Of a DNA stretch of 64,000 nt, positions 10,599 through 58,593 are shown in pieces (the first letter of the stretch is position 1; the number at the start of each line of letters is the position of its first letter). Where the stretch lies: contig OY970218.1 of the NCBI GenBank assembly GCA_963713975.1, positions 2,656,001 through 2,720,000 of the forward strand, read 5' to 3'. Origin of the DNA: an uncultured Chloroflexia bacterium. GTDB taxonomy: Bacteria > Chloroflexota > Limnocylindria > Limnocylindrales > CSP1-4. A model generated the notes under the pieces. It was not told the origin of the DNA. It saw nothing but the letters and a program-made list of their open reading frames with translations, and made no database searches. A program made the position numbers and the translations under genes.

Positions 10599-10608
10599 GG
10601 AGCCCGAG

Positions 10609-12491: not shown

Positions 12492-12825
12492 GGTTGGCCT
12501 GGTCGCGGAGCTGGTCGACGCGGCCGTGGACCGGTCCGGTGGCGCTCCGGTCGCCGTGGTCCGCGTGCGTCGGGCCACGACCATCCCGGATGACGTCCTC
12601 CGCCAGGCATTCGCGATGCTCGTGCCGGGCGGCCCGCTCGAGGAGGCCGTGCTGGAGGTCGAGACGTTCGACGTGCGTCTCGCGTGCAGTTGCGGCTTCG
12701 ATGGCGCGCTGGAGCACGACGACGTGATCGGGCCATCACAGGCCGTATGCCCCGGCTGCAGCGAGCTGCGGGGCATCCCGCCCACCGCCGAGCTCGAGCT
12801 CCTGGAGGTCCGGCCCGCGGAGTGA
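12484..12825 (+). CDS. hypA: Hydrogenase nickel metallochaperone HypA
   Basis: N-terminal MHE, CxC...CxxC zinc site; GTG start. Confidence 0.8.
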   Translation: MHEVGLVAELVDAAVDRSGGAPVAVVRVRRATTIPDDVLRQAFAMLVPGGPLEEAVLEVETFDVRLACSCGFDGALEHDDVIGPSQAVCPGCSELRGIPPTAELELLEVRPAE

Positions 12826-46319: not shown

Positions 46320-48359
46320 GTGATCGGCGGTCGCCGCCCAATCACCGGTCGCAAGCCGGGCGACCGCCGGGTGCGAGTCGATCGCCCCCACGCGCCCTAC
46401 TTCCGGTACACGGGTCCAAACCAGCTGGTGGCCAAGCCGGCTGCCTCGGTGCCGCGGTCTGCGCTGGGCCGCACCGCCCTCCGTTGGAAGTCATGGCTGA
46501 TCGGCCGTCCGCTGGCCACCGAGGAGGAGATCGGCGAACGGCTGTCCAAGCGCCTCGCCCTGCCGATCTTCAGCTCGGATGCGATCTCGTCCTCCGCCTA
46601 CGCGACCGAGGAGATCCTGCGCGTCCTGGTGCTCGCCGGGGCCGGGGCTCTGCTGGTCTCCGTCGAGATCGCGGCCGCAATCTCGATCCTGCTGGTCGTC
46701 GTCGCGATCTCCTACCGCCAGGTCTGCAACGCGTTCCCGGGCGGAGGGGGCGCCTACGCGGTCGCGCGCCAGGAGCTGCGCCCGATCCTCGGCCTGGTCG
46801 CGGCATCCGCCCTGCTCATCGACTACGTGATGACCGTGGCCGTGTCCACGTCGTCCGCCATGGACCAGCTGATCTCCGTCGCACCCGGGCTGGATGTCGT
46901 CCGGCTGGAGGTCGCGGTCGCCGTGATCGCCCTGATCACGATCGCCAACCTGCGTGGCCTGCGGGAGTCGGGGAACATCTTCGCCGTCCCCACCTACGTG
47001 TTCGTGGCCATGGCCCTGGTCATCATCGCGTCCGGGATGGTGCACATCGCAACCGGCACGGTCGTGCCCATGCCCCCCCAGGCCGAGGCCATGTCCTACG
47101 GGACCCAGACGCTCGGCCTGGTGCTCATCCTGCGCGCATTTGCCAGCGGCTCCGTGGCCCTGACCGGCGTCGAGGCCATCGCCAACGGCGTTCCCGCCTT
47201 CAAGCCCCCGGAGGCCAGGAACGCCGGCAACACCCTGCTCGCCATGGCCGTCCTCCTGGCGGTCCTGTTCATCGGGATCACGGTCGTCGCCCGCGCCTAC
47301 GACATCGTCCCGTCCGAGGCGCTGTCCGGCGGACCGACGGTCATCGCCCTCGTGGCGCAGACCGCGTTTGGGGCCACCAGCCCGCTGTACTACGTCTTCC
47401 AGGTCGCGACCGCGCTGATCCTGTTTCTGGCGGCGAACACCAGCTTCAACGCCTTCCCGCGCCTGGCGGCGATCCTGGCCCACGATGGCTACTTCCCGCG
47501 CCAGTTCTCGTTCCGCGGCGACCGGCTCGCGTACAGCTGGGGGATCATCGCCCTCGCCGCCATCGCGGCCGGGATCTACCTCATCTTCCGGGGCAACACG
47601 TCGCACCTGATCCCGCTCTACTCCGTCGGGGTGTTCGTGTGCTTCACCCTGAGCCAGAGCGGCATGGTCATGCACTGGTTCCGCGGCCGCCAGGCCGGCT
47701 GGCGGTGGCGACTCGCGATCAACGCCAGCGGCGCCCTGATGACGTTGGTCGTGCTCGTGATCGTGCTCACGGAGAAGTTCGAGCACGGGGCGTTCGTGGT
47801 CGCGATCCTCATCCCGGTGATGGTCGGTGCGATGCTGTTCATCAACCGCCAGTACGCGGCCTCTCGGCGGCAGCTCGCGATCGACCCGGGCTACGTCCTG
47901 CCGCCGCCCAGCCGTGAGCAGCGCGCGATCGTGCCGGTGCCGGCCCTCAATCGTGCCGTGGTCCGCGCGATCAACACCGCCCGCTCGATCACCGGTGACG
48001 TGAGCGCGGTGTTCATCAGCGAGGACCCGGAGGCGTCGGCGCGGATGCGGGCGCGCTGGGAGCGGCAGGTTCCGGACGTGCCGCTGGTGATCGTCGAGAG
48101 CCCGTATCGCGCCCTCTCGGGGCCGCTCATGGCGTACCTGGACGTGCTGGACCGGGCCTGGCCGCCGGAGAAGGCGGAGCCGATCACCTTTGTCGTGGTG
48201 CCCGAGTACGTGGCCCGGCACTGGTGGGAGCGGATCCTGTACAACCAGTCCGCCCGACGGCTGCGCTCGGTCCTCCTTGGTCGCCCGCACACCGTGGTGG
48301 TGGACGTGCCGTACCGGCGGGACGACCAGCCGGAGGCATCCGCGATCGAGGTGGAGTAG
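46320..48359 (+). CDS. APC-family permease, KimA-like K+ importer
   Basis: FSSDAISSSAYATEE, DYVMTVAVS, ALTGVEA, LIPLY, ESPYR, VVPEY...WWE..LYNQ. Confidence 0.88.
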   Translation: MIGGRRPITGRKPGDRRVRVDRPHAPYFRYTGPNQLVAKPAASVPRSALGRTALRWKSWLIGRPLATEEEIGERLSKRLALPIFSSDAISSSAYATEEILRVLVLAGAGALLVSVEIAAAISILLVVVAISYRQVCNAFPGGGGAYAVARQELRPILGLVAASALLIDYVMTVAVSTSSAMDQLISVAPGLDVVRLEVAVAVIALITIANLRGLRESGNIFAVPTYVFVAMALVIIASGMVHIATGTVVPMPPQAEAMSYGTQTLGLVLILRAFASGSVALTGVEAIANGVPAFKPPEARNAGNTLLAMAVLLAVLFIGITVVARAYDIVPSEALSGGPTVIALVAQTAFGATSPLYYVFQVATALILFLAANTSFNAFPRLAAILAHDGYFPRQFSFRGDRLAYSWGIIALAAIAAGIYLIFRGNTSHLIPLYSVGVFVCFTLSQSGMVMHWFRGRQAGWRWRLAINASGALMTLVVLVIVLTEKFEHGAFVVAILIPVMVGAMLFINRQYAASRRQLAIDPGYVLPPPSREQRAIVPVPALNRAVVRAINTARSITGDVSAVFISEDPEASARMRARWERQVPDVPLVIVESPYRALSGPLMAYLDVLDRAWPPEKAEPITFVVVPEYVARHWWERILYNQSARRLRSVLLGRPHTVVVDVPYRRDDQPEASAIEVE

Positions 48360-48634
48360 GGCCGGGCTTCGGGGAGGCGGCGAGCCTGCGAGCGCACGCC
48401 ACGCGGGGCGGACAGGCCGGAGCGGCCCCCATACGGCAGGCCGGGAGGCAGGCCCGGCCCCCTTCCATACGGGCCCATTCGAGGTGCCCTTCGCCATGCA
48501 GCGCGGCGACCTCTGGTACGTGGTTGGACCCACCCGCATCCCCCAAGATCAGTACCGGCGTCCCCTTGTTCTATGGGCGCGGCCGCCGCAGGGCCTCCGG
48601 CACCTGCCCGTCGCGCCAAGCAGTCGAGTGAGTC

Positions 48635-49855
48635 ATGATGCGCGACCAGGGTCTCTATGCCGCGCTCATCGAGCGCGGGATGACCCGCAGGTCGTTCCTC
48701 AAGTTCTCCGCTGCCATGACCGCAGCGCTGGCGATTCCGGCCTCGTATGCGCCACGCATCGCGGAAGGCCTCACCACCGCTCCGCGCCTCCCCGTCATCT
48801 GGGTGCGCGGGCAGACCTGCGGGGGCAACACCGAGGCGCTCCTGCGGACCTCGAATCCCACGGTCTCCTCGCTCCTGCTGGACACCCTTTCGGTGGAGTA
48901 CCACGAGTCCCTGCTCGCGACGGCCGGAGCCGCGAGCGACGTCGCCCGCACGTCGGCGATGGAGGCCTACCCGGACGGCTACATCGCGGTGATCGAGGGC
49001 GCTATCCCGAACGGCGCGGACGGTGGCTACTGCCTCGTGGGTGGCCGCCCCGTGGCGGACGTGGCGCGCGAGGTCTGCGACGGCGCCCTGGCCACGATCG
49101 CGGTCGGAGCCTGCGCGTTCGACGGCGGTGCACCTGCAGCGAGCGGCGGCCTTACCGATGCCGGCGGCGTCCGTCGCGTGGTCGGCGACTCCACCCTGAT
49201 CACGCTGCCGGGCTGCCCGATGAACGTGCTCAACCTGACCGCCGTGATCGTCCACTACCTGACCCTCCGCGAGTGGCCGCCGCTTGACCCGATGGGCCGG
49301 CCCCTGGCTGCCTACGGGAACCTGCTCCACAACCAGTGCGAGCGACGGCCGCACTTCGAGTTCGGCGAGTTCGCCCTGTCCTGGGGCGACGAGGGAGCCC
49401 AGCGCGGCTGGTGCCTGTACAAGGTGGGCTGCAAGGGTCCGGAGACGATGGCCAACTGCCCCACCGTCCGCTACGGCGACGGGGTCAGCTGGAACGTGCG
49501 CGCCGGCCACGGGTGCGCAGGCTGCGTGGCGCCCGACTTCTGGGATGCGATGGGCCCGGCCTACCTTCGGCTGCCGTCGCCGGTGCCCTTCCTGCCCAAC
49601 ATGACGGTTGACGTGGTGGGGGCAGCGGCGGTCGGTGCCGTGGCCCTCGTTGCCGGAGCGCACGCGGTGGGCATGGGTGCCCGCTACAAGCGGCGGGCGC
49701 GCATCGAGCGTCGCGAGGCCCTTGCGGGCGCCGATGGCACGACCGCCGCCCATGGCACGGCCGATGCCGATGCTGCGACCGACGCCGATGCCATGGACAC
49801 GCCGGAGCCCGTCGTGCCCACCGGCGATGGCCCCACCCCGGCCGGGGAGCGCTGA
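48635..49855 (+). CDS. Membrane-bound [NiFe] hydrogenase small subunit (Tat-exported, atypical proximal cluster)
   Basis: TRRSFLK Tat motif, CGGN, GAC, PGCP, HxxC..C.GC, C..CxxC, C-terminal TM with His. Confidence 0.92.
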   Translation: MMRDQGLYAALIERGMTRRSFLKFSAAMTAALAIPASYAPRIAEGLTTAPRLPVIWVRGQTCGGNTEALLRTSNPTVSSLLLDTLSVEYHESLLATAGAASDVARTSAMEAYPDGYIAVIEGAIPNGADGGYCLVGGRPVADVAREVCDGALATIAVGACAFDGGAPAASGGLTDAGGVRRVVGDSTLITLPGCPMNVLNLTAVIVHYLTLREWPPLDPMGRPLAAYGNLLHNQCERRPHFEFGEFALSWGDEGAQRGWCLYKVGCKGPETMANCPTVRYGDGVSWNVRAGHGCAGCVAPDFWDAMGPAYLRLPSPVPFLPNMTVDVVGAAAVGAVALVAGAHAVGMGARYKRRARIERREALAGADGTTAAHGTADADAATDADAMDTPEPVVPTGDGPTPAGER

Positions 49856-49856
49856 G

Positions 49857-51632
49857 ATGGCTCGTATCGTCATCGACCCGGTCACCCGTGCCGGCGGCCA
49901 GCTGCGGGTGGAGGCGGACGTGACCGGCGGTCGCGTGACCGGGGCATGGTCCTCCGCCACCATGTTCAGGGGCATGGAGAACGTCCTGCGCGGTCGGGAC
50001 CCACGCGATGCCTGGCTCCTGGCACAGCGCGTCTGCGGCACCTGCACCGGGGTCCACGCCCTCGCGTCGGTCCGGGCCGTGGAGCAGGCGCTGGGCATCA
50101 CCATCCCCACCAACGCCCGCCTCATCCGAAACATCCTTGCCGGCACCCTGGTCGTCCGCGATCACGTCATGCGCCTGTACCAGGAGGGACTTCCGGACTG
50201 GGTCGACACGTCGGCCGCCGTCTCCGCAGACGTGACGGCAACGTCCCGCCTGGCGCGCGCAGGCAGCCCCTGGCCCAACGCCGGAGCGGACTACTTCCAG
50301 GGCGTGCGAGACCGCCTGACGGCGATCGCCACATCGGGCCAGCCCGGCCCGTTCGCGAGCGCCTGGCCGGGTCACCCCGCCTATCGCCTGAGTCCGGAGC
50401 AGAGCCTCATCCTCGTGGCCCACGTGCTGGAGGCGTTCGACTGGCAGAGCGACTTCATGCGCATCCACGCCCTGCTGGGCGGCAAGGACCCGCACCCGCA
50501 GACCTACCTCGTCGGCGGCATGGCGCTAGTGCCACCGTGGGGCGGTCCGGCTGCGTCGCAGACGCGCCAGCACCCGCAGGTCCCGGACCGCAACGCCCCG
50601 CTCGCGCTGAGCAGCGATGGCATCGACCTGATGCGCCGGTTGGTCGCCGGGGCCAGGACGTTCGTCGAGCAGGTCTATGACCCGGACGTGCGGATGCTCC
50701 TCGACGCCTACCCGGAGTGGATCTCGACCGGCGCGGGACCCGGCAACTTCCTGTCCTTCGGCGAGTTCCCGCTGGATGACGAGGCCGGCGCGGCGAGGCT
50801 CCTTCCCGGGGGACGGCTGATGGACGGCAACCTGGAGCGTGCCGAGCCAGTGGCCGAGACCGCGGTGGCCGAGAGTGCCTCGCACGCCTGGTACACCTAC
50901 GGCACCGGCGACGCCTCGCTGCGCCGCCCGGCCGAGGGGGAGACCGCCCCCGACTTCACCGTCCCGGAGCTGCCGCTCAAGGAGCTCGACGTTCGCGGGA
51001 AGTACACGTGGGTCAAGGCAGCCCGCTATGACGGGCGCGTGATGGAGACCGGCCCTCTCGCCCGCGTACTGGTGGCCGCCGCCAACGGCCAGGCCGACAT
51101 CCGCCAGGCGCTCGGTGAGAGGCTCACGGACCTCGGGCTCGAGTCCGCGGCACTGACCGGTGCGCTCGCGAGGACCCTCGCACGCGCGATCGAGGCCGAG
51201 GTCGTCGTCCGCAAGCTGGATGGCTGGCTGTGGGAGCTCCGGTCGAACCTGGCGACGGGCGACGTGTCCGTGACCAGCATCGAGCTCTGGGATCCCGTCG
51301 CGTGGCCGTCGGAGGCCGTCGGCTTCTCGCTCGGCGAGGGCCCGCGTGGGTCGGTTGGCCACTGGATCCGGATCAAGGACGCCGTCATCGACCACTACCA
51401 GCTGCTGGACGGCTCGACGTGGAACGCGTCGCCCCGCGACGGCCTCGGTGTCGCCGGCCCGATGGAATCCGCGCTCGCGGGCCTCGACGTTGCCGACCCC
51501 GCGATGCCAGTGGAGCTGCTCCGCGTTATCCACTCCTTCGCGCCGTGCGCCGCGTGTGCCGCTCACGTCTTCGACCCGGGGGCTGCCTCCCGACGCCCTG
51601 GCCCTGCCCATCCCGCGGAGGGGATCCGATGA
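49857..51632 (+). CDS. Group-1-like [NiFe] hydrogenase large subunit with divergent active site
   Basis: FRGME, RDPRDAW, RVCGTC, PRG, TWNASPRD, PCAAC-x2-H plus C-terminal tail. Confidence 0.92.
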   Translation: MARIVIDPVTRAGGQLRVEADVTGGRVTGAWSSATMFRGMENVLRGRDPRDAWLLAQRVCGTCTGVHALASVRAVEQALGITIPTNARLIRNILAGTLVVRDHVMRLYQEGLPDWVDTSAAVSADVTATSRLARAGSPWPNAGADYFQGVRDRLTAIATSGQPGPFASAWPGHPAYRLSPEQSLILVAHVLEAFDWQSDFMRIHALLGGKDPHPQTYLVGGMALVPPWGGPAASQTRQHPQVPDRNAPLALSSDGIDLMRRLVAGARTFVEQVYDPDVRMLLDAYPEWISTGAGPGNFLSFGEFPLDDEAGAARLLPGGRLMDGNLERAEPVAETAVAESASHAWYTYGTGDASLRRPAEGETAPDFTVPELPLKELDVRGKYTWVKAARYDGRVMETGPLARVLVAAANGQADIRQALGERLTDLGLESAALTGALARTLARAIEAEVVVRKLDGWLWELRSNLATGDVSVTSIELWDPVAWPSEAVGFSLGEGPRGSVGHWIRIKDAVIDHYQLLDGSTWNASPRDGLGVAGPMESALAGLDVADPAMPVELLRVIHSFAPCAACAAHVFDPGAASRRPGPAHPAEGIR

Positions 51633-52480
51633 CGATCGTCGCCCAGGAGCCTGCCGCCACGGTCCCGGAAGACCCGGCCGGCACGACCGCGTCCACCGTT
51701 GTGGACGCGGCTCAGGTGTCACCCGGACCCGATGCCGGCCACGGGGACGCGACTGCGGGGCACGGGGCGCACGAGATCGAGAACCCGGACCAGCGGGTCC
51801 GCCTGATGGTGTGGCAGATCCCGGTGCGGGTCACCCACTGGGTCACGGCCAGCTGCATCGTGGTGCTGAGCCTGACCGGCGGCTACATCGCGGACCCGTT
51901 CCTCATCCCGGCCGGCGGCGGCGTGATGTCCACCGTCCGCCTGATCCACATCATCGCCGCCCTCACGTTCCTGCTATCGGGCCTGGTGCGCACGTACTGG
52001 CTGCTGGCGGGGAACCGCTTCTCGCGATGGACGGCGTTCATCCCGACCTCGCGCTACCAGGCCACTGAGCTCTTCCGCCAGGCCGGGTTCTACGGCTTCG
52101 TTCGGCCCGAGATCCCCAAGGTGCTGGGCCACAACCAGCTGGCCGCGACCGCGTACCTCGTGCTGTTCGGGCTGCTGCTGGTCGAGACCGTCACCGGTTT
52201 CGCCCTCGATGGCCTGATGGGTGCCGAGCCGGGCGCCACGCTGTTCGGCTGGCTGCGCGAGCTCGTTGGCGCCCAGCAGCTGCGTCTCATCCATCACCTG
52301 GCGATGTGGCTGATCCTGGCGATCGCCCTGTTCCACGTGTACAGCTGCGTCCTGGTGGATCACATCGAGCACAACGGCCTCATCTCCAGCATCGTCAGCG
52401 GCTTCAAGTTCCCGACCCGCGAGGAGGTCGTCGAGTCGCGCGACGGCGGACCGGAGCTGCTGGACCGGGTGGAGCCGTGA
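51629..52480 (+). CDS. Ni/Fe hydrogenase b-type cytochrome subunit
   Basis: VRVTHW, RLIH, GHN, IHH, FHVY heme ligands; 4 TM helices. Confidence 0.92.
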   Translation: MTIVAQEPAATVPEDPAGTTASTVVDAAQVSPGPDAGHGDATAGHGAHEIENPDQRVRLMVWQIPVRVTHWVTASCIVVLSLTGGYIADPFLIPAGGGVMSTVRLIHIIAALTFLLSGLVRTYWLLAGNRFSRWTAFIPTSRYQATELFRQAGFYGFVRPEIPKVLGHNQLAATAYLVLFGLLLVETVTGFALDGLMGAEPGATLFGWLRELVGAQQLRLIHHLAMWLILAIALFHVYSCVLVDHIEHNGLISSIVSGFKFPTREEVVESRDGGPELLDRVEP

Positions 52481-53028
52481 CGGTCACGCAACGGAACCTG
52501 GTCGTAGTCGGGGTGGGCAACGTGCTGCTGGGCGATGACGCTGCCGGTGTCCGGGTGGTCGAGGGTCTCGAGGCCCTGGCTGGACGTGACCCGCATGCGT
52601 TGCCGCCGGAGACGCGGCTCGTGGATGGCGGGACGCTGGGCACGGACCTCCTGCCGGTCATCGATGGCGCATCCGGCGTGGTGCTGGTCGATGCCGTCCG
52701 CCTGGGTGGGGCGGCTGGATCGGTGAGCGTGCTGCATGAGGACGAGATCGATGCTCTGGGCGGATTGGCCGACGGCGGCAGCACCGGTGCCGTGGGCGAG
52801 CTCGTGGCGACCGCCCGCTTCCTGGGACGGCTGACCGGGCCGCTATCGCTGGTGGGTATCGAGGTGGCAGAGGTCGAGCCCGGGCTGGGCCTCTCCGGCG
52901 CCGTCGACCGGGCGCTGCCGGTCGCGATCGAGGCCGTCCGCGGCGAGCTGCGCCGCATGGGCGGGTCGTGGCAACCAGCCATGGATGGTGGCGCCAGCAA
53001 CGCACGAATGGCAGGGGCGACGGCATGA
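52477..53028 (+). CDS. Hydrogenase maturation protease (HyaD/HybD-like, degenerate)
   Basis: GVGNVLLGDD, DGGTLG, LVDA; conserved His absent. Confidence 0.85.
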   Translation: MTVTQRNLVVVGVGNVLLGDDAAGVRVVEGLEALAGRDPHALPPETRLVDGGTLGTDLLPVIDGASGVVLVDAVRLGGAAGSVSVLHEDEIDALGGLADGGSTGAVGELVATARFLGRLTGPLSLVGIEVAEVEPGLGLSGAVDRALPVAIEAVRGELRRMGGSWQPAMDGGASNARMAGATA

Positions 53029-53768
53029 GATCAAGATTCGACCGCACGCTGCGGCTGCTGATCCTCGCGAACATCCTCGTGGTCGCGCTGCTGGCCGGCA
53101 CGATGGTGCTGGACTGGCTGCGGGTGATCCCTGCCCGCGGCACGGCCGACGCAACGACCGCCCCCGCCGTGTCGCCCACGCCCGAGACGATGCAGATGGG
53201 CCTCGCCCACATCCCGACCTCCAACAGCTGCCTCCTCTGCCACCAGAGTGGCGGTGCCGCCGAGCTCAAGACCATCCCGGCAATCGGGCACCAGCTCGAA
53301 GGGTGGACGGCGTGCCTGACCTGCCATACCGACGAGTCGCTTGGCCGCCAGGCACCGGGGCACGTCGGGATCGCGGAGACCGAATGCCTCAACTGCCACA
53401 AGGTTGCCCAGGACGGCCCGGCGATCACCCAGGCCCACGCCGACCTTCACGAGGCCTGTCTCGACTGCCATGGCAGCGTCGCACACCTGCCGTCGAGCAT
53501 GGTGGGCCGCAACCAGGACGAGTGCTGGCTGTGCCACAAACCGAACCCTTCGCCGCCGCCGACCAAGCCGCATCCCGACCCGCAGAACCTGACCTGCCGC
53601 TCGTGTCACCAGTCCGCGGAGGCGGGTGCGCTGCCGATCGACCACGCCCTGCGCGAGGACTCCACCTGCACCCTGTGCCACGACATCGACGGCTCGGCCG
53701 TGCCGAGCCCAAGTGCCGTGGAGCCCGACGGCGACGAGCTTCCATCGGCGAGCCCGAGTGGCGGCTGA
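53025..53768 (+). CDS. Membrane-anchored multiheme cytochrome c (7 CxxCH)
   Basis: N-terminal TM; CLLCH, CLTCH, CLNCH, CLDCH, CWLCH, CRSCH, CTLCH. Confidence 0.92.
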   Translation: MRSRFDRTLRLLILANILVVALLAGTMVLDWLRVIPARGTADATTAPAVSPTPETMQMGLAHIPTSNSCLLCHQSGGAAELKTIPAIGHQLEGWTACLTCHTDESLGRQAPGHVGIAETECLNCHKVAQDGPAITQAHADLHEACLDCHGSVAHLPSSMVGRNQDECWLCHKPNPSPPPTKPHPDPQNLTCRSCHQSAEAGALPIDHALREDSTCTLCHDIDGSAVPSPSAVEPDGDELPSASPSGG

Positions 53769-53807
53769 CGGATCCCGCAGCGATGCCGCATACGCGATGA
53801 TGGGGTC

Positions 53808-54263
53808 ATGCTGGACACGCTGATCCTCACCTGGGAGGACCTCGACGGTCTCGTCGCGCGCCTCGCCGGGCGGGTCGGGCGTGAACATGACCTGGTCCTC
53901 GCCATCACCCGGGGTGGGCTGGTCCCGGCCGGGATGCTCGCCTACCGCCTCGACCTTCGCGAGATCCTCGTTGCGGGAGCCATCTTCTACCGGCCCGAGG
54001 GCGGCACCCACCCTGCCCCCGTGATCGGTCACTTTCCGGCGGCCTCGCTCCTCGAGGGCCAGCGGGTCCTGGTCGTGGATGAGGTGTGGGAGACCGGCGA
54101 GACCATGACGGAGGTCCTGGCGAGGGTGCGGGCCGCCGGCGGCCAACCCGTCTCGGCCGTCATCCACTACAAGCCGGGCCGGTCCCGGGTGGCGGGTGCG
54201 CCGGACCACCATGCCGCGACGCTCGAGGGCTGGGTCACCTACCCGTACAAGGCCGGCGGCTGA
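53808..54263 (+). CDS. Purine phosphoribosyltransferase-family protein
   Basis: ITRGGLVP, VLVVDEVWETGET PRPP motif, WVTYPY. Confidence 0.88.
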   Translation: MLDTLILTWEDLDGLVARLAGRVGREHDLVLAITRGGLVPAGMLAYRLDLREILVAGAIFYRPEGGTHPAPVIGHFPAASLLEGQRVLVVDEVWETGETMTEVLARVRAAGGQPVSAVIHYKPGRSRVAGAPDHHAATLEGWVTYPYKAGG

Positions 54264-54275
54264 CCGGCGCCTGGA

Positions 54276-54292
54276 TCTCAGCGGCGTCTCAG
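54276..54292 (+). promoter_or_regulatory. MprA-type direct-repeat box 1 (upstream of yceI-like gene)
   Basis: TCTCAG-cggcg-TCTCAG. Confidence 0.8.
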
Positions 54293-54341
54293 CAACGTAT
54301 GGTTGTCTGAGCGACCGAGTCACCAGCCGCAGGAGTGCCCA

Positions 54342-55121
54342 ATGTCCACCCAGCGTCCCACGTCCCGGCGGGGCCCGGTCCTCGCCGTCATCGTGCTCGC
54401 CGTCATCGTCGTCGCTGTGGCGGGCATCTGGTACCTGTTCCTGCGCCCCGGGGGTCCCGCACCGGTGTCGCTGGGAACCCCGGCTCCGGACGTGCCTGCA
54501 GCGACGGCCGCGCCCGCCGCGTCCCCGGGGCCGGCGACAGGTGCACCGGGGACCGTCGCCCCCGACGGGATCACAGGGACCTGGGCCGTCGACCCGTCTG
54601 TCGGGTCGTTCGGCGACTTCTCCGGCTCCTTCGCCGGGTACCGCGTCCAGGAGACGCTGGCCAACATTGGGGCGACGGAGGCGGTGGGACGGACACCGGA
54701 CGTCACGGGCTCGATCACGATCGACGACACCACCATCACCGCCGCCGAGCTGACCGTGGATCTCACCACGCTGCAGAGCGACGAGCGGTTCCGCGACGGC
54801 CAGCTGCGTCGCCAGGCCCTCGAGACCGGCGAGTTCCCCACGGCCATCTTCACCCTCACCGAGCCGGTCGACATCGGATCGGTGCCGGCCGAGGGCACGA
54901 CCGTCGAGGTCACCGCGGCAGGGGATCTCACGCTTCACGGAGTCACGCAGGCGGTCCAGGTGCCGCTTCAGGCGCGCCTGCAGGGCGGCGTGGTCACGGT
55001 TGCCGGGTCGATTCCCATCGTCTTTGCCGACTACGGCATCGCGAAGCCCGAGGCGATGGTGGTGCTGTCCGTGGAGGACCACGGCGTGATGGAGGTCCAG
55101 CTCCAGCTCACGCGAAGCTGA
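54342..55121 (+). CDS. YceI-family lipid/polyisoprenoid-binding protein, membrane anchored
   Basis: GTWAVD, GYRVQE, SD..RD, FPTA.F, GDLTLHGVT, DYGI. Confidence 0.9.
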   Translation: MSTQRPTSRRGPVLAVIVLAVIVVAVAGIWYLFLRPGGPAPVSLGTPAPDVPAATAAPAASPGPATGAPGTVAPDGITGTWAVDPSVGSFGDFSGSFAGYRVQETLANIGATEAVGRTPDVTGSITIDDTTITAAELTVDLTTLQSDERFRDGQLRRQALETGEFPTAIFTLTEPVDIGSVPAEGTTVEVTAAGDLTLHGVTQAVQVPLQARLQGGVVTVAGSIPIVFADYGIAKPEAMVVLSVEDHGVMEVQLQLTRS

Positions 55122-55125
55122 GCGC

Positions 55126-55142
55126 TCTCAGGCGGCTCTCAG
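55126..55142 (+). promoter_or_regulatory. MprA-type box 2 (upstream of glycosyltransferase)
   Basis: TCTCAG-gcggc-TCTCAG. Confidence 0.8.
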
Positions 55143-55241
55143 GGAGTGCCGTTTGAATAGCCGTAGGTCGCGGCGTTCCCGGTGGCATCTCCTCCCCACC
55201 GAGAGCGCCGCGCCCTGCTGATCAGCGGGAGCCCATCACCG

Positions 55242-57137
55242 GTGACGACATCCATCGCAGCGGGCCCGGACATCGTCCGGGACGATCCCCGGCTGGCCCT
55301 GGCCTGGCGCCTCGCCCCGCTGGCGCTGGCCGTGCTGGCCGCCATCGCCTACGGTCTGAACCTGACCGTCAGCGGGTACGCGAACACCTACTACTCGGCG
55401 GCCGCCCAGGCCGGGTCGCAGAGCTGGTCCGCGATGCTGTTCGGGTCCCTGGACGCGGCCGGGTTCATCACGGTTGACAAGCCGCCTGTCTCCCTGTGGG
55501 CCCAGGGCCTCTCGGTGCGGATCCTGGGCCTCGGTCCCTGGGCGGTGCTCCTGCCGCAGGCACTCGCGGGGGTCGCCGCGGTGGTCATCCTCCACGACGC
55601 CGTCCGCCGCCAGCTCGGCCGCGAGGCGGCCCTCATCGCAGGGGTCGCATTCGCGCTCACCCCCGTCGCCGTCCTGGTCTTCCGCTACAACAACCCCGAC
55701 GCGGTTCTGGTACTGCTGCTCGTGGCCGCGGCATGGGCGCTGGTCCGGGGCCTGGAGGACGGCCGTCTCCGCTGGCCGCTGGTCGCCGCGGTGCTGATCG
55801 GGCTGGCCTTCCTCACCAAGTTCCTCCAGGCGTACCTCGTGCTGCCCGCGTTCCTCGCGACCTATCTCGTTGCCGCGCCGGGCGGGATCGGGCGAAGGAT
55901 CGCCGTGCTGGCGGCCTCCGCCGTCGCCGTGCTGGCCTCGTCGTTGTGGTGGGTGGCGCTGGTGGACCTGCTGCCGGCGTCATCGCGCCCCTACATCGGC
56001 GGCTCCCGGGACAACACCGCGCTCGACCTCCTGCTGGGCTACGACGGCCTCGGCCGGATCTTCGGAGGCGGAGGTAGCGCAGCAGCGTCCGGCGGGAGGC
56101 CAGGGGGTGGCGCCATATTTGGAGGCAGCGTGGGCCTGCTGCGGATGTTCAATGCCGAGTGGGCGGGCCAGGTGGGCTGGCTGCTGCCGGCGGCACTGAT
56201 CGGGCTGGCGACCGGCCTCGTCACGCGCCTGCGGGCACCCCGCACGGACCCGCGACGGGCAGCCTTCCTCCTGTGGGGCACCTGGGCCGTCGTCCACATC
56301 CTGGTGTTCTCGCTGATGAGCGGCATCGTGCACCCGTACTACGCGGTTGCCATCGCACCGGCAGCGGCGGCGCTCACCGGTGGCGGCGTCGTGGAGCTGT
56401 GGAGACCCCGAGCCCGCTTCGCGCCGGCGGGCCTCGTGCTGGGCGGGATGATCGTGGTGACGGCGTGGTGGTGCTGGCAGGTGCTGGACCGGACGCCGGA
56501 GTTCTGGCCCGGCGCCGGCGTGGCGGCGTTCTTCGTGGCCGTCTCGGCCGGGATCCTGGTCGCCGTCACGTCCCTGGTGGACGACCCAAGATCGCCGGGG
56601 ATTGGGTGGATCGCCCTGGTGCTGGGGGTTGGCGCCATGCTCGTCGGGCCCGTGCTCTACGCCGGCGAGACCATGGGACGGGCGATCGCGGGTGGCGACC
56701 CCGCGGCGGGCCCGAGCACGAGCCGTCCTGGCGGCTTCCCGGGCGGCCCAGGCGGCTTCCCGGGTGACGCGGCGGGCACGGACGAGCAACTCGTGTCGTG
56801 GCTCCTCGAGCACCAGGGCACGGAGACGTGGCTGGTGGCGGTCGGCTCGGCGAACCAGGCCGGGCCGCTCCAGCTGGCGTCGGGCGTGCCGGTCATGGCC
56901 ATGGGTGGCTTCATGGGCTCCGATCCCGCGCCAACGCTGGAGCAGCTCCAGGCGTACGTGCGGGATGGCAGCCTGCGGTTCGTCCTGCTCGGCGGTCGGG
57001 ACGGCGGCCCAGGCGGGTTCTTCGGCGGGGACGGGCAGGGGAGTGTGGCCGGCGAGCGATCCGACTGGGTGACGACGGCCTGCAGTCCCGTGGACGGCCT
57101 GTCCGCGACGCTCTACGACTGCCGCGGGGCCGGCTGA
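55242..57137 (+). CDS. ArnT/PMT-like GT-C glycosyltransferase (YkcB-like)
   Basis: YANTYYSAA, ITVDKPP, RYNNPD, GGFMGSDP; many TM helices; alternative start 55182. Confidence 0.88.
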   Translation: MTTSIAAGPDIVRDDPRLALAWRLAPLALAVLAAIAYGLNLTVSGYANTYYSAAAQAGSQSWSAMLFGSLDAAGFITVDKPPVSLWAQGLSVRILGLGPWAVLLPQALAGVAAVVILHDAVRRQLGREAALIAGVAFALTPVAVLVFRYNNPDAVLVLLLVAAAWALVRGLEDGRLRWPLVAAVLIGLAFLTKFLQAYLVLPAFLATYLVAAPGGIGRRIAVLAASAVAVLASSLWWVALVDLLPASSRPYIGGSRDNTALDLLLGYDGLGRIFGGGGSAAASGGRPGGGAIFGGSVGLLRMFNAEWAGQVGWLLPAALIGLATGLVTRLRAPRTDPRRAAFLLWGTWAVVHILVFSLMSGIVHPYYAVAIAPAAAALTGGGVVELWRPRARFAPAGLVLGGMIVVTAWWCWQVLDRTPEFWPGAGVAAFFVAVSAGILVAVTSLVDDPRSPGIGWIALVLGVGAMLVGPVLYAGETMGRAIAGGDPAAGPSTSRPGGFPGGPGGFPGDAAGTDEQLVSWLLEHQGTETWLVAVGSANQAGPLQLASGVPVMAMGGFMGSDPAPTLEQLQAYVRDGSLRFVLLGGRDGGPGGFFGGDGQGSVAGERSDWVTTACSPVDGLSATLYDCRGAG

Positions 57138-57180
57138 CGCGTCCCGAGGTGGCGTGCGGAGTCCTGGGCCCGACGCTGGT

Positions 57181-57197
57181 TCTCAGGGTGCTCTCAT
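57181..57197 (+). promoter_or_regulatory. MprA-type box 3 (upstream of ferric reductase-like gene)
   Basis: TCTCAG-ggtgc-TCTCAT. Confidence 0.78.
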
Positions 57198-57219
57198 CGC
57201 GCAGCCCGACGATCCTGCC

Positions 57220-58593
57220 GTGAGCGCAACGCCCTCCATCCGCCCGCGCCCGGTCCCGCTGCCCCGCACCTGGGGAGTCCATGCGCGCGACATCGTCGCC
57301 CTGCTGGTGGGCAACGGCATCTTCATCGTCCTGATGTGGGTTCGCCACGGAGCCCTCAACGAGTTCGGCTCGCTCGCCGCCGGCCTCACCGCGCTTGGAC
57401 AGCTGGCGGCCCTCGAGGGCACCTACCTCGCACTGGTGGGGATCGTCCTCATGGCCCGCAGCCCCTGGCTGGACGAGGCGTTCGGGATGGACCGGCTCGC
57501 CTGGGCTCACCGCTGGCTCGGGTTCGCAGCGGTGTGGCTGATCGGTGCCCACCTGGTGCTGACCGTCACGGGGTACGCCTTTGGCGACGGGCAGGACCCG
57601 ATCACGGAGCTGGTCACGCTGGTCATGACCTACCCGTTCGTGCTCCTGGGTCTCGTGGGCTTCGTGCTGTTCGTGATGCTGGGCGTCACCTCCGTGCGGG
57701 CCGCACGCCGGCGCGTGTCGTACGAGACCTGGTTCTTCCTCCACCTGTACGCGTACCTCGCGATCGCTCTCGCGTTCCTGCACCAGCTCCATGCCGGCGC
57801 GGACTTCATCCACGACCAGCTCGCCGCGATCTACTGGATCAGCCTGTACGTGATCGCCGCGCTCCTCGTTCTCGTCTTCCGCGTCGGCCAGCCCCTGGCC
57901 ACCTCGCTTCGCCACCGCCTGCGGGTCTCGGCCGTCGTGCCCGAGACGGCCGGGGTGACCTCGATCTACCTCGCCGGGCGCGATCTTGACCGGCTGCCCG
58001 TTCGCTCCGGCCAGTACTTCGTCATCCGCTTCCTCACCCGCGATGGCTGGTGGCGCGGCCACCCGTACTCGCTCTCGTCGGCGCCCAACGGCAACTGGCT
58101 CCGGATCACCGTCAAGGCCCTGGGCGACGACAGCACGCGGCTGCAGCGCGTGCCCGTGGGAACGCCGGTGTTCGTGGAAGGTCCCTACGGCGTCCTCACC
58201 GGCGCCCGCCGGACGCGGCCCAGGGTGACGTTCATCGCGGGCGGCATCGGGATTGCCCCGCTGCGGGCGCTGCTGGAGTCGCTCCCCGCCGCCCGCGGCG
58301 ATCTCACCCTGCTCTACCGGGCCCGCCACGAGTCGGACGTCGTGTTCCGCGAGGAGCTGCGCCTGCTTGCCGCTCATCGCGGCGCAACGGTCCATCTCCT
58401 GCTCGGCCGGCGTGGCGCAACGGGGTCCGAGAATCCCCTCGGGAGCGAGTCGCTCGCCCGTCTCGTGCCCGACATCAGCGAGCACGAGGTCTACGTCTGC
58501 GGGCCCGCCGAGATGATGCAGGCGACCGAGGCGTCGCTCCGGCGATTGGGCGTGCCGGACCGGCACATCCACGCCGAGCGGTTCGCCTACTGA
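57220..58593 (+). CDS. Ferric reductase-like heme-b membrane domain fused to an FAD/NAD(P)H-binding domain
   Basis: His pairs (HRW..H; LH..HQ), HPYSLS, EGPYG, GGIGIAP, CGP, ERF. Confidence 0.9.
   Translation: MSATPSIRPRPVPLPRTWGVHARDIVALLVGNGIFIVLMWVRHGALNEFGSLAAGLTALGQLAALEGTYLALVGIVLMARSPWLDEAFGMDRLAWAHRWLGFAAVWLIGAHLVLTVTGYAFGDGQDPITELVTLVMTYPFVLLGLVGFVLFVMLGVTSVRAARRRVSYETWFFLHLYAYLAIALAFLHQLHAGADFIHDQLAAIYWISLYVIAALLVLVFRVGQPLATSLRHRLRVSAVVPETAGVTSIYLAGRDLDRLPVRSGQYFVIRFLTRDGWWRGHPYSLSSAPNGNWLRITVKALGDDSTRLQRVPVGTPVFVEGPYGVLTGARRTRPRVTFIAGGIGIAPLRALLESLPAARGDLTLLYRARHESDVVFREELRLLAAHRGATVHLLLGRRGATGSENPLGSESLARLVPDISEHEVYVCGPAEMMQATEASLRRLGVPDRHIHAERFAY

What the first reader, a model, noticed from the sequence alone, without database searches (positions are those of the whole stretch)
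48635..53768. Divergent hydrogenase-like operon with a systematically rewritten active site and a heptaheme partner
Seen: five tightly coupled, intact genes (small, large, cyt b, protease, 7-heme cyt c). The large subunit aligns by eye to group 1 enzymes and keeps all four Cys, the PRG Arg, the Mg-binding Glu/His and a C-terminal tail. However RIEGH is RAGGQ (proton-transfer Glu, E28 in E. coli Hyd-1, lost), DPCxxC is APCAAC (canopy Asp lost), VVP(T/S)TWN is LDGSTWN and APRGAL is GPRGSV (Fe(CN)2CO pocket altered), and HDHxxHFY is RDHxxRLY. Established: substituting that Glu severely impairs H2 turnover. The electron-transfer chain (Fe-S, heme b, heme c) is conserved, which argues against random decay. 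Inference: a neofunctionalised extracytoplasmic metalloenzyme with a different metal centre or substrate, an H2/redox sensor, or an electron conduit to quinone or external acceptors. Best candidate for an undescribed system.
Basis: partly seen in the sequence, partly recalled or inferred. Interest (0 to 1): 0.88.

Follow-up and report, generated by a model that had tools for sequence, protein, structure and literature searches.

The report
Rewired hydrogenase clade with heptaheme cytochrome
A soil Chloroflexota genome carries an intact, conserved hydrogenase operon whose catalytic pocket, proton gate and maturation enzyme all changed together when a seven-heme cytochrome was gained, so this is an undescribed enzyme variant, not a decaying gene.

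Summary
Window 48635-53768 (+) holds five translationally coupled genes: a TAT small subunit, a [NiFe] large subunit, cytochrome b, a HybD-type protease and a membrane-anchored 7-heme cytochrome c.

The changes are not private to this genome. They define a monophyletic Chloroflexota clade (SH-aLRT 100) nested in canonical Hya-type relatives, which published surveys call group 1f.
- In all 34 clade loci the proton-gate Glu (E. coli E28) is gone and Asp replaces V530.
- All 33 full-length clade rows carry a 17-residue insertion with invariant Trp, His and Pro.
- The heme gene is present in 30 of 34 clade loci and 0 of 45 canonical loci.
- No intermediate forms occur among 121 proteins sampled around the base of the clade.
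- dN/dS is 0.10-0.26 for the four structural genes.

Two further points are new. The clade's protease lacks the HybD His93 metal ligand (1 of 29 against 43 of 44). About a quarter of basal members have lost the "strictly conserved" pendant Arg (16 of 57).

The most likely function is still extracytoplasmic H2 oxidation with a re-routed proton path and an extra heme-c exit. A changed substrate or cofactor environment is not excluded. I found no description in the papers searched.

The parts
48635..49855 (+). Small subunit (406 aa). TAT signal RRSFLKF at residues 18-24. Fe-S ligands: proximal C62, C160, C194 plus N65 in place of the fourth Cys; medial C275, C294, C297; distal H232, C235, C260, C266. 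C-terminal membrane helix containing a His.
   Evidence: PF14720, PF01058, TAT signal; TIGR00391 363 bits. (alignment to HyaA). (ligand motifs across 34 clade and 45 canonical loci). (clade-specific changes, mature numbering: residue 13 Glu to Arg in 29 of 30; D188 to N in 30 of 30; A198 to F; R211 to Q; N236 to G/A/S).
49857..51632 (+). [NiFe]-hydrogenase-type large subunit (591 aa).
   Evidence: PF00374, 1-508 of 508, E 7e-167. (best solved relative 3myr_B, E 2.8e-147; E. coli Hyd-1, E 7.4e-130). (235 identical positions of 591 against HyaB).
49887..49901 (+). RAGGQ (residues 11-15) in place of RIEGH. The proton-gate Glu (E. coli E28) is Gly13.
   Evidence: Glu at this position in 0 of 34 clade loci and 0 of 120 homologues, against 40 of 40 canonical sisters.
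50034..50057 (+). L1 motif CGTCTGVH (C60, C63, H67). Both Ni-ligand Cys are kept. The residue between them is Thr instead of Val (E. coli V78).
   Evidence: V78: Val in 40 of 40 sisters; Thr 21, Ser 5, Ala 4, Met 2, Val 1 in 33 clade rows.
50532..50582 (+). Clade-specific 17-residue insertion after VGGM (residues 226-242) with invariant W228, G230, P231, H239 and P240.
   Evidence: present in 33 of 33 clade rows, absent in 40 of 40 sisters. (W228, H239, P240 in 120 of 120). (these residues and D518 are among only eight newly fixed positions). (AF2 pLDDT under 50 over residues 219-245).
51339..51356 (+). GPRGSV (residues 495-500) in place of APRGAL. The pendant Arg (R497, E. coli R509) is kept.
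   Evidence: R509 kept in 120 of 120 crown homologues but lost in 16 of 57 basal-grade clade proteins.
51402..51425 (+). LLDGSTWN (residues 516-523) in place of xVVP(S/T)TWN. Asp518 replaces E. coli V530 and Gly519 replaces P531.
   Evidence: Asp in 33 of 33 clade rows against Val in 40 of 40 sisters. Asp in 120 of 120. Among the 150 representatives, Asp at this position occurs only in clade members and fragments.
51540..51632 (+). L2 motif APCAACAAH (C564, C567, H570; the canopy Asp, E. coli D574, is Ala562), followed by a 21-aa C-terminal extension and the stop codon.
   Evidence: tails are 15-16 aa in most canonical sisters; most clade tails are 18-21 aa and end in Arg, commonly as E-x-x-R.
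51629..52480 (+). HyaC-type cytochrome b (283 aa) with a roughly 55-aa low-complexity N-terminal extension. His residues align with those of HyaC.
   Evidence: PF01292; TIGR02125 130.6 bits, cut-off 121.5.. dN/dS 0.12-0.21.
52477..53028 (+). HyaD/HybD-type maturation endopeptidase (183 aa). It keeps the E16-like Asp and D62 but has Ser102 (codon 52780-52782) where HybD has the metal ligand His93.
   Evidence: TIGR00072, 100 bits. (His in 1 of 29 clade proteases against 43 of 44 sisters). dN/dS 0.26-0.52.
53025..53768 (+). Membrane-anchored heptaheme cytochrome c (247 aa). N-terminal helix at residues 2-34, seven CxxCH motifs and seven further invariant His.
   Evidence: PF14522, PF09699. (CxxCH positions). 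(invariant columns in 41 sequences). (only the helix is modelled confidently). (497 homologues at E <= 0.001). (present in 30 of 34 clade loci and 0 of 45 canonical loci).

Best explanation
This is a respiratory, outward-facing, membrane-bound [NiFe]-hydrogenase complex. It belongs to a previously undescribed Chloroflexota sub-lineage that arose inside the Hya-type enzymes labelled group 1f in published surveys.

**Proposed mechanism.**
- The large subunit still receives a Ni-Fe(CN)2CO cofactor at four conserved Cys.
- The complex is carried out by the small subunit's TAT signal.
- It oxidises H2 on the outer face of the membrane.
- Electrons pass along three Fe-S clusters: proximal (3 Cys plus Asn), medial, and distal (His plus 3 Cys).
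- From the distal cluster they go either to the di-heme cytochrome b and the quinone pool, or to the new membrane-anchored 7-heme cytochrome c. That cytochrome offers a second exit to c-type carriers, oxidases or external acceptors.
- The canonical proton exit (Cys-S to Glu28 and onward) has been abandoned.
- It is replaced by a route built from the only newly fixed elements of the clade: Asp518 beside the Fe ligands, and the inserted loop with His239.

**What is shown.** Gene anatomy, the conserved ligands, the linked clade-wide changes, purifying selection, and the presence of cofactor-assembly genes in the genome.

**What is inferred.** That H2 is still the substrate, that Asp518 and His239 carry protons, and that the heme c protein docks on the complex.
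For: **The metal-site scaffold is kept.**
- In the 120 nearest homologues: C76 118, C79 117, C576 118, C579 119, R509 120, D118 120, H582 118.
- The recalled Mg-ligand Glu (E41) is invariant in the 40 rows of alignment A1.
- The whole large subunit matches PF00374 end to end. It models on solved group-1 enzymes with TM 0.80-0.83.

**Maturation capacity exists.**
- hypF-C-D-E lie at 1.9806-1.9855 Mb of the same genome.
- A HypA-like gene lies at window 12220-12825.
- A dedicated protease gene is kept in 29 of 34 clade loci, with dN/dS below 1.

**Selection is purifying.**
- dN/dS over six clade pairs: SSU 0.10-0.26 over five pairs (a sixth pair covered only 23 codons and gave 0.05), LSU 0.10-0.24, cytochrome b 0.12-0.21, heme c 0.10-0.24.
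- Canonical sister LSU: 0.05-0.17.

**The changes are linked and had a single origin.**
- The clade is one branch, with SH-aLRT 100 and a stem of 0.15 substitutions per site, inside canonical Chloroflexota enzymes.
- Among 121 proteins around the base of the clade, 64 have Glu, Val and no insertion.
- The other 57 have no Glu (G 55, D 1, A 1), Asp518 and the insertion. There are no mixed states.
- The only newly fixed positions are D518, five residues of the insertion, and two residues just after it. This is the pattern expected when a lost function (the Glu gate) is taken over by new residues.

[quoted passage not shown] **A new redox partner fits the small-subunit changes.** These cluster next to the distal cluster: D188N in 30 of 30, plus A198F, R211Q and N236G/A/S.
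Against: **Residues described as crucial for H2 turnover are missing or dispensable in the clade.**
- The Glu described as "a universal proton gate" (PMC8020662 passages) is absent in all members.
- The "strictly conserved" pendant Arg is lost in 16 of 57 basal-grade clade proteins: G 13, Q 2, K 1. Several of these stand for many member sequences.
- In the same set, H83 is Gln in 9 proteins, D118 is lost in 5, and the C79 ligand is lost in 2.

**Constraint is relaxed on many canonical positions.**
- Of the 227 columns that are at least 95% invariant in canonical sisters, 49 are changed or relaxed in the clade.
- These include the stretch H122, H125, L126, H127.
- They also include V78 and L126, which I recall as the gas-channel gate (D. 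fructosovorans V74 and L122).

**Other difficulties.**
- By recall, Asp518 sits at the position that lines the CO pocket (D. vulgaris V500). A carboxylate there has no precedent that I know of.
- The protease lacks the His93 metal ligand in 28 of 29 clade loci, so nickel-dependent processing may not run as in textbook enzymes.
- No activity, expression or structural data exist.
- The AF2 model is unreliable exactly at residues 10-14 and 219-245, and no coordinates were available to measure distances.
Confidence: 0.5

Rival explanations
1. Neofunctionalised enzyme. The Ni-Fe-type site, or a variant of it with an altered ligand environment, now acts on something other than H2, or carries out a different reaction. 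The substrate would reach the site through a channel that has become polar. The Fe-S, heme b and heme c chain would link that reaction to respiration.
For: - Every second-sphere element tied to H2 chemistry is altered or dispensable: E28 in 0 of 120; R509 lost in 16 of 57 basal members; D574 variable, with A 71, N 18, D 15 and S 12 of 120; V78 and L126 no longer hydrophobic or conserved.
- A new invariant Asp sits at the recalled CO-pocket position, and a new invariant Trp/His loop has appeared.
- The maturation protease has lost one of three metal ligands in 28 of 29 loci.
- The C-terminal tail is longer, with a conserved end.
- The clade gained a dedicated cytochrome that no canonical relative has: 0 of 45 loci.
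Against: - The four Cys, R509, D118 and H582 are almost invariant in the crown group that includes this window. That is what a working NiFe hydrogenase site needs.
- The stem branch is short (0.15).
- Basal members are still 63-70% identical to the canonical sisters listed.
- No candidate substrate can be named from context. The neighbouring genes are a phosphoribosyltransferase, a YceI-like protein, a GT39-like ORF (named by me, no family search) and a ferric-reductase-like flavoprotein.
- No precedent is known to me for a group-1 enzyme with a non-H2 substrate.
Confidence: 0.3
2. Electron conduit with a vestigial catalytic subunit. The complex mainly moves electrons between the quinone pool (cytochrome b) and the outside (7-heme cytochrome) through the small subunit's Fe-S chain. 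The large subunit is kept chiefly as an assembly and export partner.
For: - Cytochrome b and the heme c protein are better conserved in the clade than might be expected. Cytochrome b amino-acid identity is 85-90% in clade pairs, against 61-76% in canonical pairs of similar LSU identity.
- The heme c protein is 62-86% identical over its 120 best homologues.
- Catalytic residues are lost repeatedly in basal members.
- Protease dN/dS is the highest of the five genes, at 0.26-0.52.
Against: - LSU dN/dS (0.10-0.24) is as low as that of the small subunit.
- The Ni ligands are kept in nearly all members.
- New residues became invariant inside the large subunit. That is not expected of a passive scaffold.
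Confidence: 0.12
3. Incipient pseudogene, or an assembly or annotation artefact private to this genome.
For: None found. One related locus (L020) has a truncated large-subunit end and only a fragment of the heme gene.
Against: - Five intact coupled ORFs.
- The same states in 34 loci from separate assemblies and in 120 database clusters.
- dN/dS well below 1.
Confidence: 0.02

Closest known systems
Group 1f [NiFe]-hydrogenases of HydDB (the Hya type of Geobacter sulfurreducens, Roseiflexus and Acidobacterium ailaaui). Equating the canonical sisters found here with group 1f is my inference. It rests on the taxa in the tree and on passages of PMC11604079 and PMC6776052.
   Same: - Gene order SSU-LSU-cytochrome b-protease.
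- TAT small subunit with a C-terminal helix.
- Proximal cluster with Asn or Asp in place of the fourth Cys in most members.
- The clade is nested among these enzymes in the tree.
- 49-53% LSU identity to the window, and 63-70% to basal clade members.
   Different: Canonical members have RIEGH (40 of 40) and Val at the V530 position (40 of 40), followed by Pro in 36 and Ala in 4. They lack the 17-residue insertion. Their protease has His93 (43 of 44), their tail is 15-16 aa, and none has the heme c gene (0 of 45).
E. coli hydrogenase-1 (HyaABCD, group 1d) and Allochromatium vinosum membrane-bound hydrogenase (PDB 3myr)
   Same: - Best solved relatives: 3myr_B E 2.8e-147 and Hyd-1 E 7.4e-130. 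Fold TM 0.83.
- The same four Cys, pendant Arg, D118, C-terminal His and cytochrome b partner.
   Different: E28, H30, V78, H117, A507, L512, V530, P531 and D574 are all substituted. There are no supernumerary proximal-cluster Cys. The clade adds an insertion and a heme c subunit.
Desulfovibrio periplasmic [NiFe]-hydrogenases with multiheme cytochrome c3 (recalled, not tested here)
   Same: An outward-facing hydrogenase that hands electrons to a c7/c3-class multiheme cytochrome (Pfam PF14522, PF14537 and PF02085 matches).
   Different: - Here the cytochrome has seven hemes, is anchored by an N-terminal helix and is encoded inside the operon together with a cytochrome b.
- It has no significant solved relative (best E 0.027).
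- Desulfovibrio enzymes keep the Glu gate.
Hydrogenase relatives with altered active sites (Mbx/MBS and Ehr complexes of group 4, complex I NuoD; recalled)
   Same: A lineage of the [NiFe] large-subunit family in which hallmark catalytic residues changed while the electron-transfer module was kept.
   Different: Those lineages lost Ni-ligand Cys and are cytoplasm-facing ion-pumping complexes. This clade keeps all four Cys and is a TAT-exported group-1 enzyme.

Membership tests
Group 1 membrane-bound uptake [NiFe]-hydrogenase | Large subunit of the NiFeSe_Hases family over its full length. | tested here: met
   PF00374, positions 1-508 of 508, E 7e-167. Solved group-1 enzymes are the best matches.
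Group 1 membrane-bound uptake [NiFe]-hydrogenase | Four Ni/Fe-ligand Cys in the L1 (RxCGxCxxxH) and L2 (xPCxxCxxH) motifs. | tested here: met
   C60, C63, C564 and C567. Kept in 117-119 of 120 homologues.
Group 1 membrane-bound uptake [NiFe]-hydrogenase | TAT-exported small subunit with three Fe-S clusters. | tested here: met
   TAT signal and TIGR00391 at 363 bits. Medial and distal ligands are all present. The proximal cluster has 3 Cys plus Asn65, a state shared with most canonical sisters.
Group 1 membrane-bound uptake [NiFe]-hydrogenase | Proton-gate glutamate next to the terminal Cys (E. coli E28), called "a universal proton gate" in PMC8020662. | tested here: not met
   Gly13. Glu in 0 of 34 loci and 0 of 120 homologues.
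Group 1 membrane-bound uptake [NiFe]-hydrogenase | Pendant arginine above Ni-Fe (E. coli R509). | tested here: met
   R497 is present and kept in 120 of 120 crown homologues. It is lost in 16 of 57 basal-grade clade proteins.
Group 1 membrane-bound uptake [NiFe]-hydrogenase | C-terminal extension removed by a HybD-type endopeptidase with the metal triad E16/D62/H93. | tested here: inconclusive
   The tail (21 aa) and the protease gene are present. The protease has Ser at the H93 position; His occurs in 1 of 29 clade proteases against 43 of 44 sisters. Cleavage itself cannot be tested here.
Group 1 membrane-bound uptake [NiFe]-hydrogenase | H2 oxidation coupled to quinone reduction through cytochrome b. 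| not testable with these tools
   Cytochrome b of the HyaC family is present (TIGR02125 130.6 bits). No activity data exist.
HydDB group 1f | Phylogenetic placement with group 1f reference sequences. | tested here: inconclusive
   The clade is nested among Hya-type enzymes of Geobacteraceae, Acidobacteriota, Ktedonobacterales and Humicultoraceae. Papers label these taxa's enzymes 1f. No HydDB reference set or classifier was available.

The most novel reading that the evidence does not exclude
The clade is the first group-1 [NiFe]-hydrogenase lineage to have changed its chemistry. An Asp sits in the pocket that normally holds the Fe-bound CO. An invariant Trp/His loop has been inserted. The Glu gate is lost, the pendant Arg is dispensable, the gas gate has become polar, and the maturation protease no longer has its nickel-binding His. 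Together these would make a Ni-Fe-type site with a different ligand environment or a different substrate. That site would be wired to both quinone and a 7-heme wire on the cell surface of abundant soil and freshwater Chloroflexota.
Probability: 0.3. Interest if true: 0.9.

Novelty: new variant of a known kind. Interest (0 to 1): 0.72.

Why it matters
Two residues treated as near-universal requirements for [NiFe] hydrogenase catalysis are the Glu proton gate and the pendant Arg. The Glu is absent from this whole clade, and the Arg is repeatedly lost in its basal members. Yet the clade is selectively maintained and common in uncultured soil and freshwater Chloroflexota.

If the enzyme still oxidises H2, it is a natural experiment. 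It would show an alternative proton route and tolerance of a carboxylate beside the Fe ligands. It would also add a heme-c electron exit to membrane-bound hydrogenases.

If the enzyme does not oxidise H2, hydrogenase surveys that assign genes by similarity to group 1f are miscounting H2 oxidisers in these lineages, and a new extracytoplasmic metalloenzyme awaits characterisation. Either way the clade gives clear, testable targets: D518, H239, G13 and the protease His position.

Tried and rejected
**Steps that gave no usable result**
- Complex prediction of the small subunit (residues 46-325) with the heme c protein (residues 55-222), both as alignments. The verdict was "no answer" (score 0.00). 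It is not evidence either way.
- AF2 model of the heme c protein. Mean pLDDT was 53.5 and only the N-terminal helix was confident, so I ran no fold search on it.
- AF2 model of the large subunit. Mean pLDDT was 76.9, but below 50 at residues 10-14 and 219-245, which are the sites of interest. No coordinates are given to scripts, so no distances could be measured. The fold search only confirmed the known fold.
- Profile search of the heme c family against solved structures. Nothing scored better than E 0.027.
- Atlas look-up. It returned only c7-like Chloroflexota clusters.
- Sequencing runs. None was listed and no RNA holder was listed.
- Promoter and terminator scan of 48200-54400. It found 0 sites of either kind.
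- Representative library search. At 50% clustering the clade collapses to two full-length representatives plus fragments. The search showed that Asp at the V530 position is confined to the clade. It also showed that some other distant LSU-like clusters lack E28.

**Literature**
- Searches found no paper on this clade.
-, which looked for residue-level descriptions of the CO/CN pocket, found nothing. The roles of D. vulgaris V500, L482 and S502, and of D. fructosovorans V74 and L122, are therefore recalled and not checked.
- Supplementary figures are closed. Figure S4 of PMC6776052, for example, lists hydrogenases of Ellin6529 genomes and might already show members of this clade labelled by group.

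**Readings considered and rejected**
- Pseudogene or artefact.
- H2 sensor, because of the export signal, the membrane anchors and the absence of a conserved sensor partner.
- The Asn at the fourth proximal-cluster ligand as a clade novelty, because most canonical sisters share it.

Full report
**1. What is there**

On the + strand of the window lie five intact ORFs:
- small subunit (SSU), 48635-49855;
- large subunit (LSU), 49857-51632;
- cytochrome b, 51629-52480;
- maturation protease, 52477-53028;
- multiheme cytochrome c, 53025-53768.

The first junction is a 1-nt gap. The other three are 4-nt ATGA or GTGA overlaps, so the genes are translationally coupled.

Family searches name them:
- SSU: a TAT-signal [NiFe] small subunit (TIGR00391, 363 bits).
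- LSU: a full-length nickel-dependent hydrogenase large subunit (PF00374, 1-508 of 508, E 7e-167).
- Cytochrome b: a Ni/Fe-hydrogenase b-type cytochrome (TIGR02125, 130.6 bits, cut-off 121.5).
- Protease: a hydrogenase maturation protease (TIGR00072, 100 bits).
- Cytochrome c: a c7/paired-CXXCH protein with seven CxxCH motifs.

The heme protein has a confidently predicted N-terminal helix at residues 2-34. It also has seven further invariant His residues, which would fit seven bis-His hemes on a membrane anchor.

The best solved relatives of the large subunit are the Allochromatium vinosum membrane-bound enzyme (3myr_B, E 2.8e-147) and Salmonella and E. coli hydrogenase-1 types.

**2.

Aligned to E. 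coli HyaB (235 identical positions of 591):

| E. coli HyaB | Window |
|---|---|
| E28 | G13 |
| H30 | Q15 |
| V78 | T62 |
| H117 | R101 |
| A507 | G495 |
| L512 | V500 |
| V530 | D518 |
| P531 | G519 |
| D574 | A562 |

Kept are C60, C63, C564 and C567, R497 (R509), D102 (D118), H570 (H582), E41 (E57) and a 21-residue tail.

One correction concerns the small subunit. It lacks the fourth proximal-cluster Cys and has Asn65 at HyaA mature position 20. Asn or Asp at that position is also the rule in the canonical relatives. It is therefore a property of the wider family, not of this operon.

**3. The changes define a clade**

The protein database returned 4208 relatives at E <= 0.001 among 8000 scored candidates. 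The 120 best are 55-86% identical to the window, apart from the window's own protein. In those 120:
- Glu at the E28 position: 0 (G 97, N 16, D 3, S 2, gap 2).
- Asp at the V530 position: 120.
- Trp228, His239 and Pro240 of an inserted loop: 120 each.
- Retained canonical residues: C76 118, C79 117, C576 118, C579 119, R509 120, D118 120, H582 118.

A scan of one genome per species found 503 relatives and returned 79 loci.
- Thirty-four loci (L009-L038, L042, L043, L045, L046) are of the window's type. None has Glu at the gate (G, N or S, and one D). All have Asp at the V530 position.
- The other 45 loci come from Geobacteraceae, Acidobacteriota, Ktedonobacterales, Anaerolineae, Thermomicrobia, Vulcanimicrobiota, Sysuimicrobiota and others. 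They have RIEGH, and Val at the V530 position followed by Pro or Ala.

The heme c gene is found at 150 bits or more in 30 of the 34 clade loci.
- Three of the remaining four are cut by contig ends (L013, L030, L036).
- The fourth, L020, holds a 65-bit fragment after a truncated large-subunit end.
- None of the 45 canonical loci has the gene.

**4. Phylogeny**

I built a tree of 74 large subunits with IQ-TREE (quick search, LG+G4) and E. coli HyaB as outgroup. Seven rows were left out: L019 and L023 (ORF trimming failed) and L053, L061, L079, L080 and L082 (split ORFs).
- The 33 clade rows sit on one branch with SH-aLRT 100.
- The stem is only 0.15 substitutions per site.
- The clade is nested among canonical Chloroflexota enzymes; L039, L040 and L044 are the nearest.
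- All 32 clade rows other than the window's own carry Chloroflexota titles.

Passages of PMC11604079 and PMC6776052 label enzymes of the sister taxa (Humicultoraceae, Chloroflexales, Acidobacterium) as group 1f. The clade is therefore most simply a derived sub-lineage of group 1f. This is an inference, because no HydDB references were in the tree.

A search seeded with the most basal clade member, L030, returned 120 proteins. With the window added, that makes 121:
- 64 have Glu, Val and no insertion.
- 57 have no Glu, Asp518 and the insertion.
- None is mixed.

In the sample, the Glu loss, the Asp gain and the insertion appear together. Among the loci, the heme gene appears together with them.

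**5. What changed and what became fixed**

I compared the 33 clade rows with the 40 canonical rows. Of the 227 columns that are at least 95% invariant in the canonical set, 131 stay at 90% or more in the clade, and 49 are changed or relaxed to under 60%.

The changed or relaxed columns include E28, H30, V78, the run H122, H125, L126, H127, A128 and L129, then N227, G503, A507, L512, V530, D574 and V581.

Only eight positions are newly fixed (at least 95% in the clade, under 50% in sisters):
- W228, G230, P231, H239 and P240 of the 17-residue insertion;
- P248 and L251 just after it;
- D518.

By recall, not checked in any call:
- E. coli V530, P531, T532 and L512 correspond to D. vulgaris V500, P501, S502 and L482, which line the Fe(CN)2CO pocket.
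- E. coli V78 and L126 correspond to D. fructosovorans V74 and L122 at the end of the gas channel.

In the small subunit (30 clade rows and 43 canonical rows, with L029 and L084 dropped), the clade-specific changes in mature numbering are:
- residue 13, Glu to Arg, in 29 of 30; this residue lies beside the first proximal-cluster Cys;
- D188N in 30 of 30, plus A198F, R211Q and N236G/A/S, all close in sequence to the distal-cluster ligands.

**6. A new observation: the protease is altered too**

E. coli HybD binds metal through Glu16, Asp62 and His93 (passages of PMC2670836). I aligned the proteases with HybD and HyaD.
- The His93 column holds His in 43 of 44 canonical sisters.
- It holds His in only 1 of 29 clade proteases (L035). 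The other 28 have a different residue (22) or a gap (6). The window has Ser102.
- The E16-like acid (29 of 29) and D62 (29 of 29) are kept.
- L028 has no protease gene between cytochrome b and the heme gene.

The large subunit's tail is 15-16 residues in most sisters. Most clade tails are 18-21 residues and end in Arg, commonly as E-x-x-R.

**7. Selection**

Nei-Gojobori dN/dS was computed for six clade pairs:

| Gene | dN/dS |
|---|---|
| SSU | 0.10-0.26 (a sixth pair covered only 23 codons, 0.05) |
| LSU | 0.10-0.24 |
| Cytochrome b | 0.12-0.21 |
| Heme c | 0.10-0.24 |
| Protease | 0.26-0.52 |

Six canonical pairs give LSU 0.05-0.17 and protease 0.08-0.43. Two of those dS values were saturated.

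The operon is under purifying selection, and the protease is the least constrained gene in both groups.

**8. Erosion of catalytic residues in basal members**

In the 57 basal-grade clade proteins:
- R509 is lost in 16 (G 13, Q 2, K 1);
- H83 is Gln in 9;
- D118 is lost in 5;
- C79 is lost in 2.

Several of these representatives stand for many member sequences.

In the loci, Arg is missing in L035, L037, L033 with L036, and L043. These sit on separate branches of the tree, but some of the forks joining them have support under 80. The number of independent losses is therefore uncertain. The crown group, which contains the window, keeps Arg in 120 of 120.

**9. Genome context**

- The genome is a single 3.62-Mb contig, 92% complete.
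- One search found PF00374 matches at five places, eight matches in all. These are this operon, three short group-3-like genes (one of them inside the window) and a HycE-like group-4 gene at 1.17 Mb.
- The in-window group-3 enzyme is a HoxF/U/Y/H-like set at 7472-12030, with a HypA-like gene at 12220-12825.
- hypF-C-D-E lie at 1.9806-1.9855 Mb.
- This operon is the only group-1 enzyme found in the genome.
- Downstream lie a phosphoribosyltransferase, a YceI-like protein, a GT39-like ORF (my name for it; no family search was run) and a ferric-reductase-like flavoprotein. These recur in many clade loci. I read that as inherited synteny and not as a functional link.
- In a sample of 201 genomes of the same class, the heme gene matched in 20. 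That includes 6 of 7 other genomes of the window's genus, 17 of 60 of its family, and 0 of 66 in family f3. The operon is therefore an accessory trait.

**10. Interpretation**

Several lines favour an enzyme that still carries a Ni-Fe cofactor and works on the outer face of the membrane:
- the metal ligands are kept;
- Hyp genes are present in the genome;
- a protease gene is kept in the operon;
- selection is purifying;
- new residues became fixed inside the catalytic subunit.

The simplest function is H2 oxidation. Electrons would go to quinone through cytochrome b and, as a new feature, to a 7-heme cytochrome. Protons would leave by a route built from Asp518 and the His239 loop instead of the Glu28 path.

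Published work shows that the Glu is important but not absolutely required (PMC10430524 passages; PMC8020662 passages).

Against this reading stand the dispensability of the pendant Arg in part of the clade, the relaxed gas-gate residues, a carboxylate at the recalled CO-pocket position, and the His-less protease. These are what a change of chemistry would look like.

I give 0.5 to the rewired hydrogenase, 0.3 to a changed substrate or cofactor environment, 0.12 to an electron conduit with a vestigial catalytic subunit, and 0.02 to decay or artefact.

**11. Novelty**

Three full-text searches found no description of this clade, of a group-1 enzyme lacking the Glu gate, or of a hydrogenase operon with a heptaheme partner:
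- hydrogenase + group 1 + multiheme + Chloroflexota + novel;
- "group 1f" + hydrogenase + NiFe;
- Limnocylindria + hydrogenase.

The Chloroflexi survey preprint 10.1101/2021.08.23.457424 (passages) mentions a group 1f variant in Anaerolinea. That variant has an NrfD-like subunit and no cytochrome, so it is a different thing.

I rate the finding a new variant of a known kind.

Noticed in passing
L079:6998-8707, L080:6965-8707, L082:660-2402, L061:6971-8698 (canonical sister loci; Methylomirabilia and Anaerolineae genomes): The large-subunit genes have in-frame TGA codons exactly at the L1-motif Cys positions. L079, L080 and L082 have TGA at both positions (E. coli C76 and C79), reading RI*GV*TTVH. 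L061 has TGA at the C79 position only. There are no other stops. A predicted hairpin lies within the 60 nt that start at the last TGA. This may be selenocysteine at the N-terminal Ni ligands. Known [NiFeSe] enzymes carry Sec at the C576 position.
   Followed up: partly
window 7472-12030 and 12220-12825: A second hydrogenase lies in the window. It is a HoxF-, HoxU-, small-subunit- and large-subunit-like set of the NAD-linked group-3 kind (NuoF family 481 bits, HoxU 351 bits, VhuA-like 388 bits). A weak HypA-like ORF follows it.
   Followed up: partly
window 48827-48829 (SSU Asn65) and the SSU genes of L009-L087: The fourth Cys of the proximal Fe-S cluster (HyaA mature C20) is Asn or Asp in the clade and in most canonical sisters. 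It is Cys in only some of them. This resembles the 3Cys-1Asp proximal cluster that I recall for group 1h.
   Followed up: partly
L042:757-10897: Two complete copies of the operon (SSU, LSU, cytochrome b, protease, heme c) lie in tandem in one Chloroflexota genome.
   Followed up: no
own genome G000:C1:1992843-1993583 (- strand), outside the window: A paralogue of the heme c protein with five CxxCH motifs (42% identity over residues 21-183) lies about 7 kb from the hypFCDE cluster. Similar paralogues occur in other genomes of the class.
   Followed up: no
proteins P0272, P0313, P0321, P0323, P0332, P0336, P0340, P0348, P0358, P0365, P0367, P0377, P0381, P0382: Other, more distant large-subunit-like cluster representatives (about 460-530 aa, 33-42% identical to the window) also lack Glu at the E28 position, but have no Asp at the V530 position. 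The Glu gate is therefore not universal in sequence space.
   Followed up: no
L028:8159-9797: This basal clade locus has no protease gene between cytochrome b and the heme c gene. Its large-subunit tail is short (15 aa).
   Followed up: no
window 53808-58593 and the matching parts of L009-L037: A phosphoribosyltransferase, a YceI-like protein, a GT39-like ORF (my label; no family search was run on it) and a ferric-reductase-like membrane flavoprotein follow the operon in many clade loci.
   Followed up: partly
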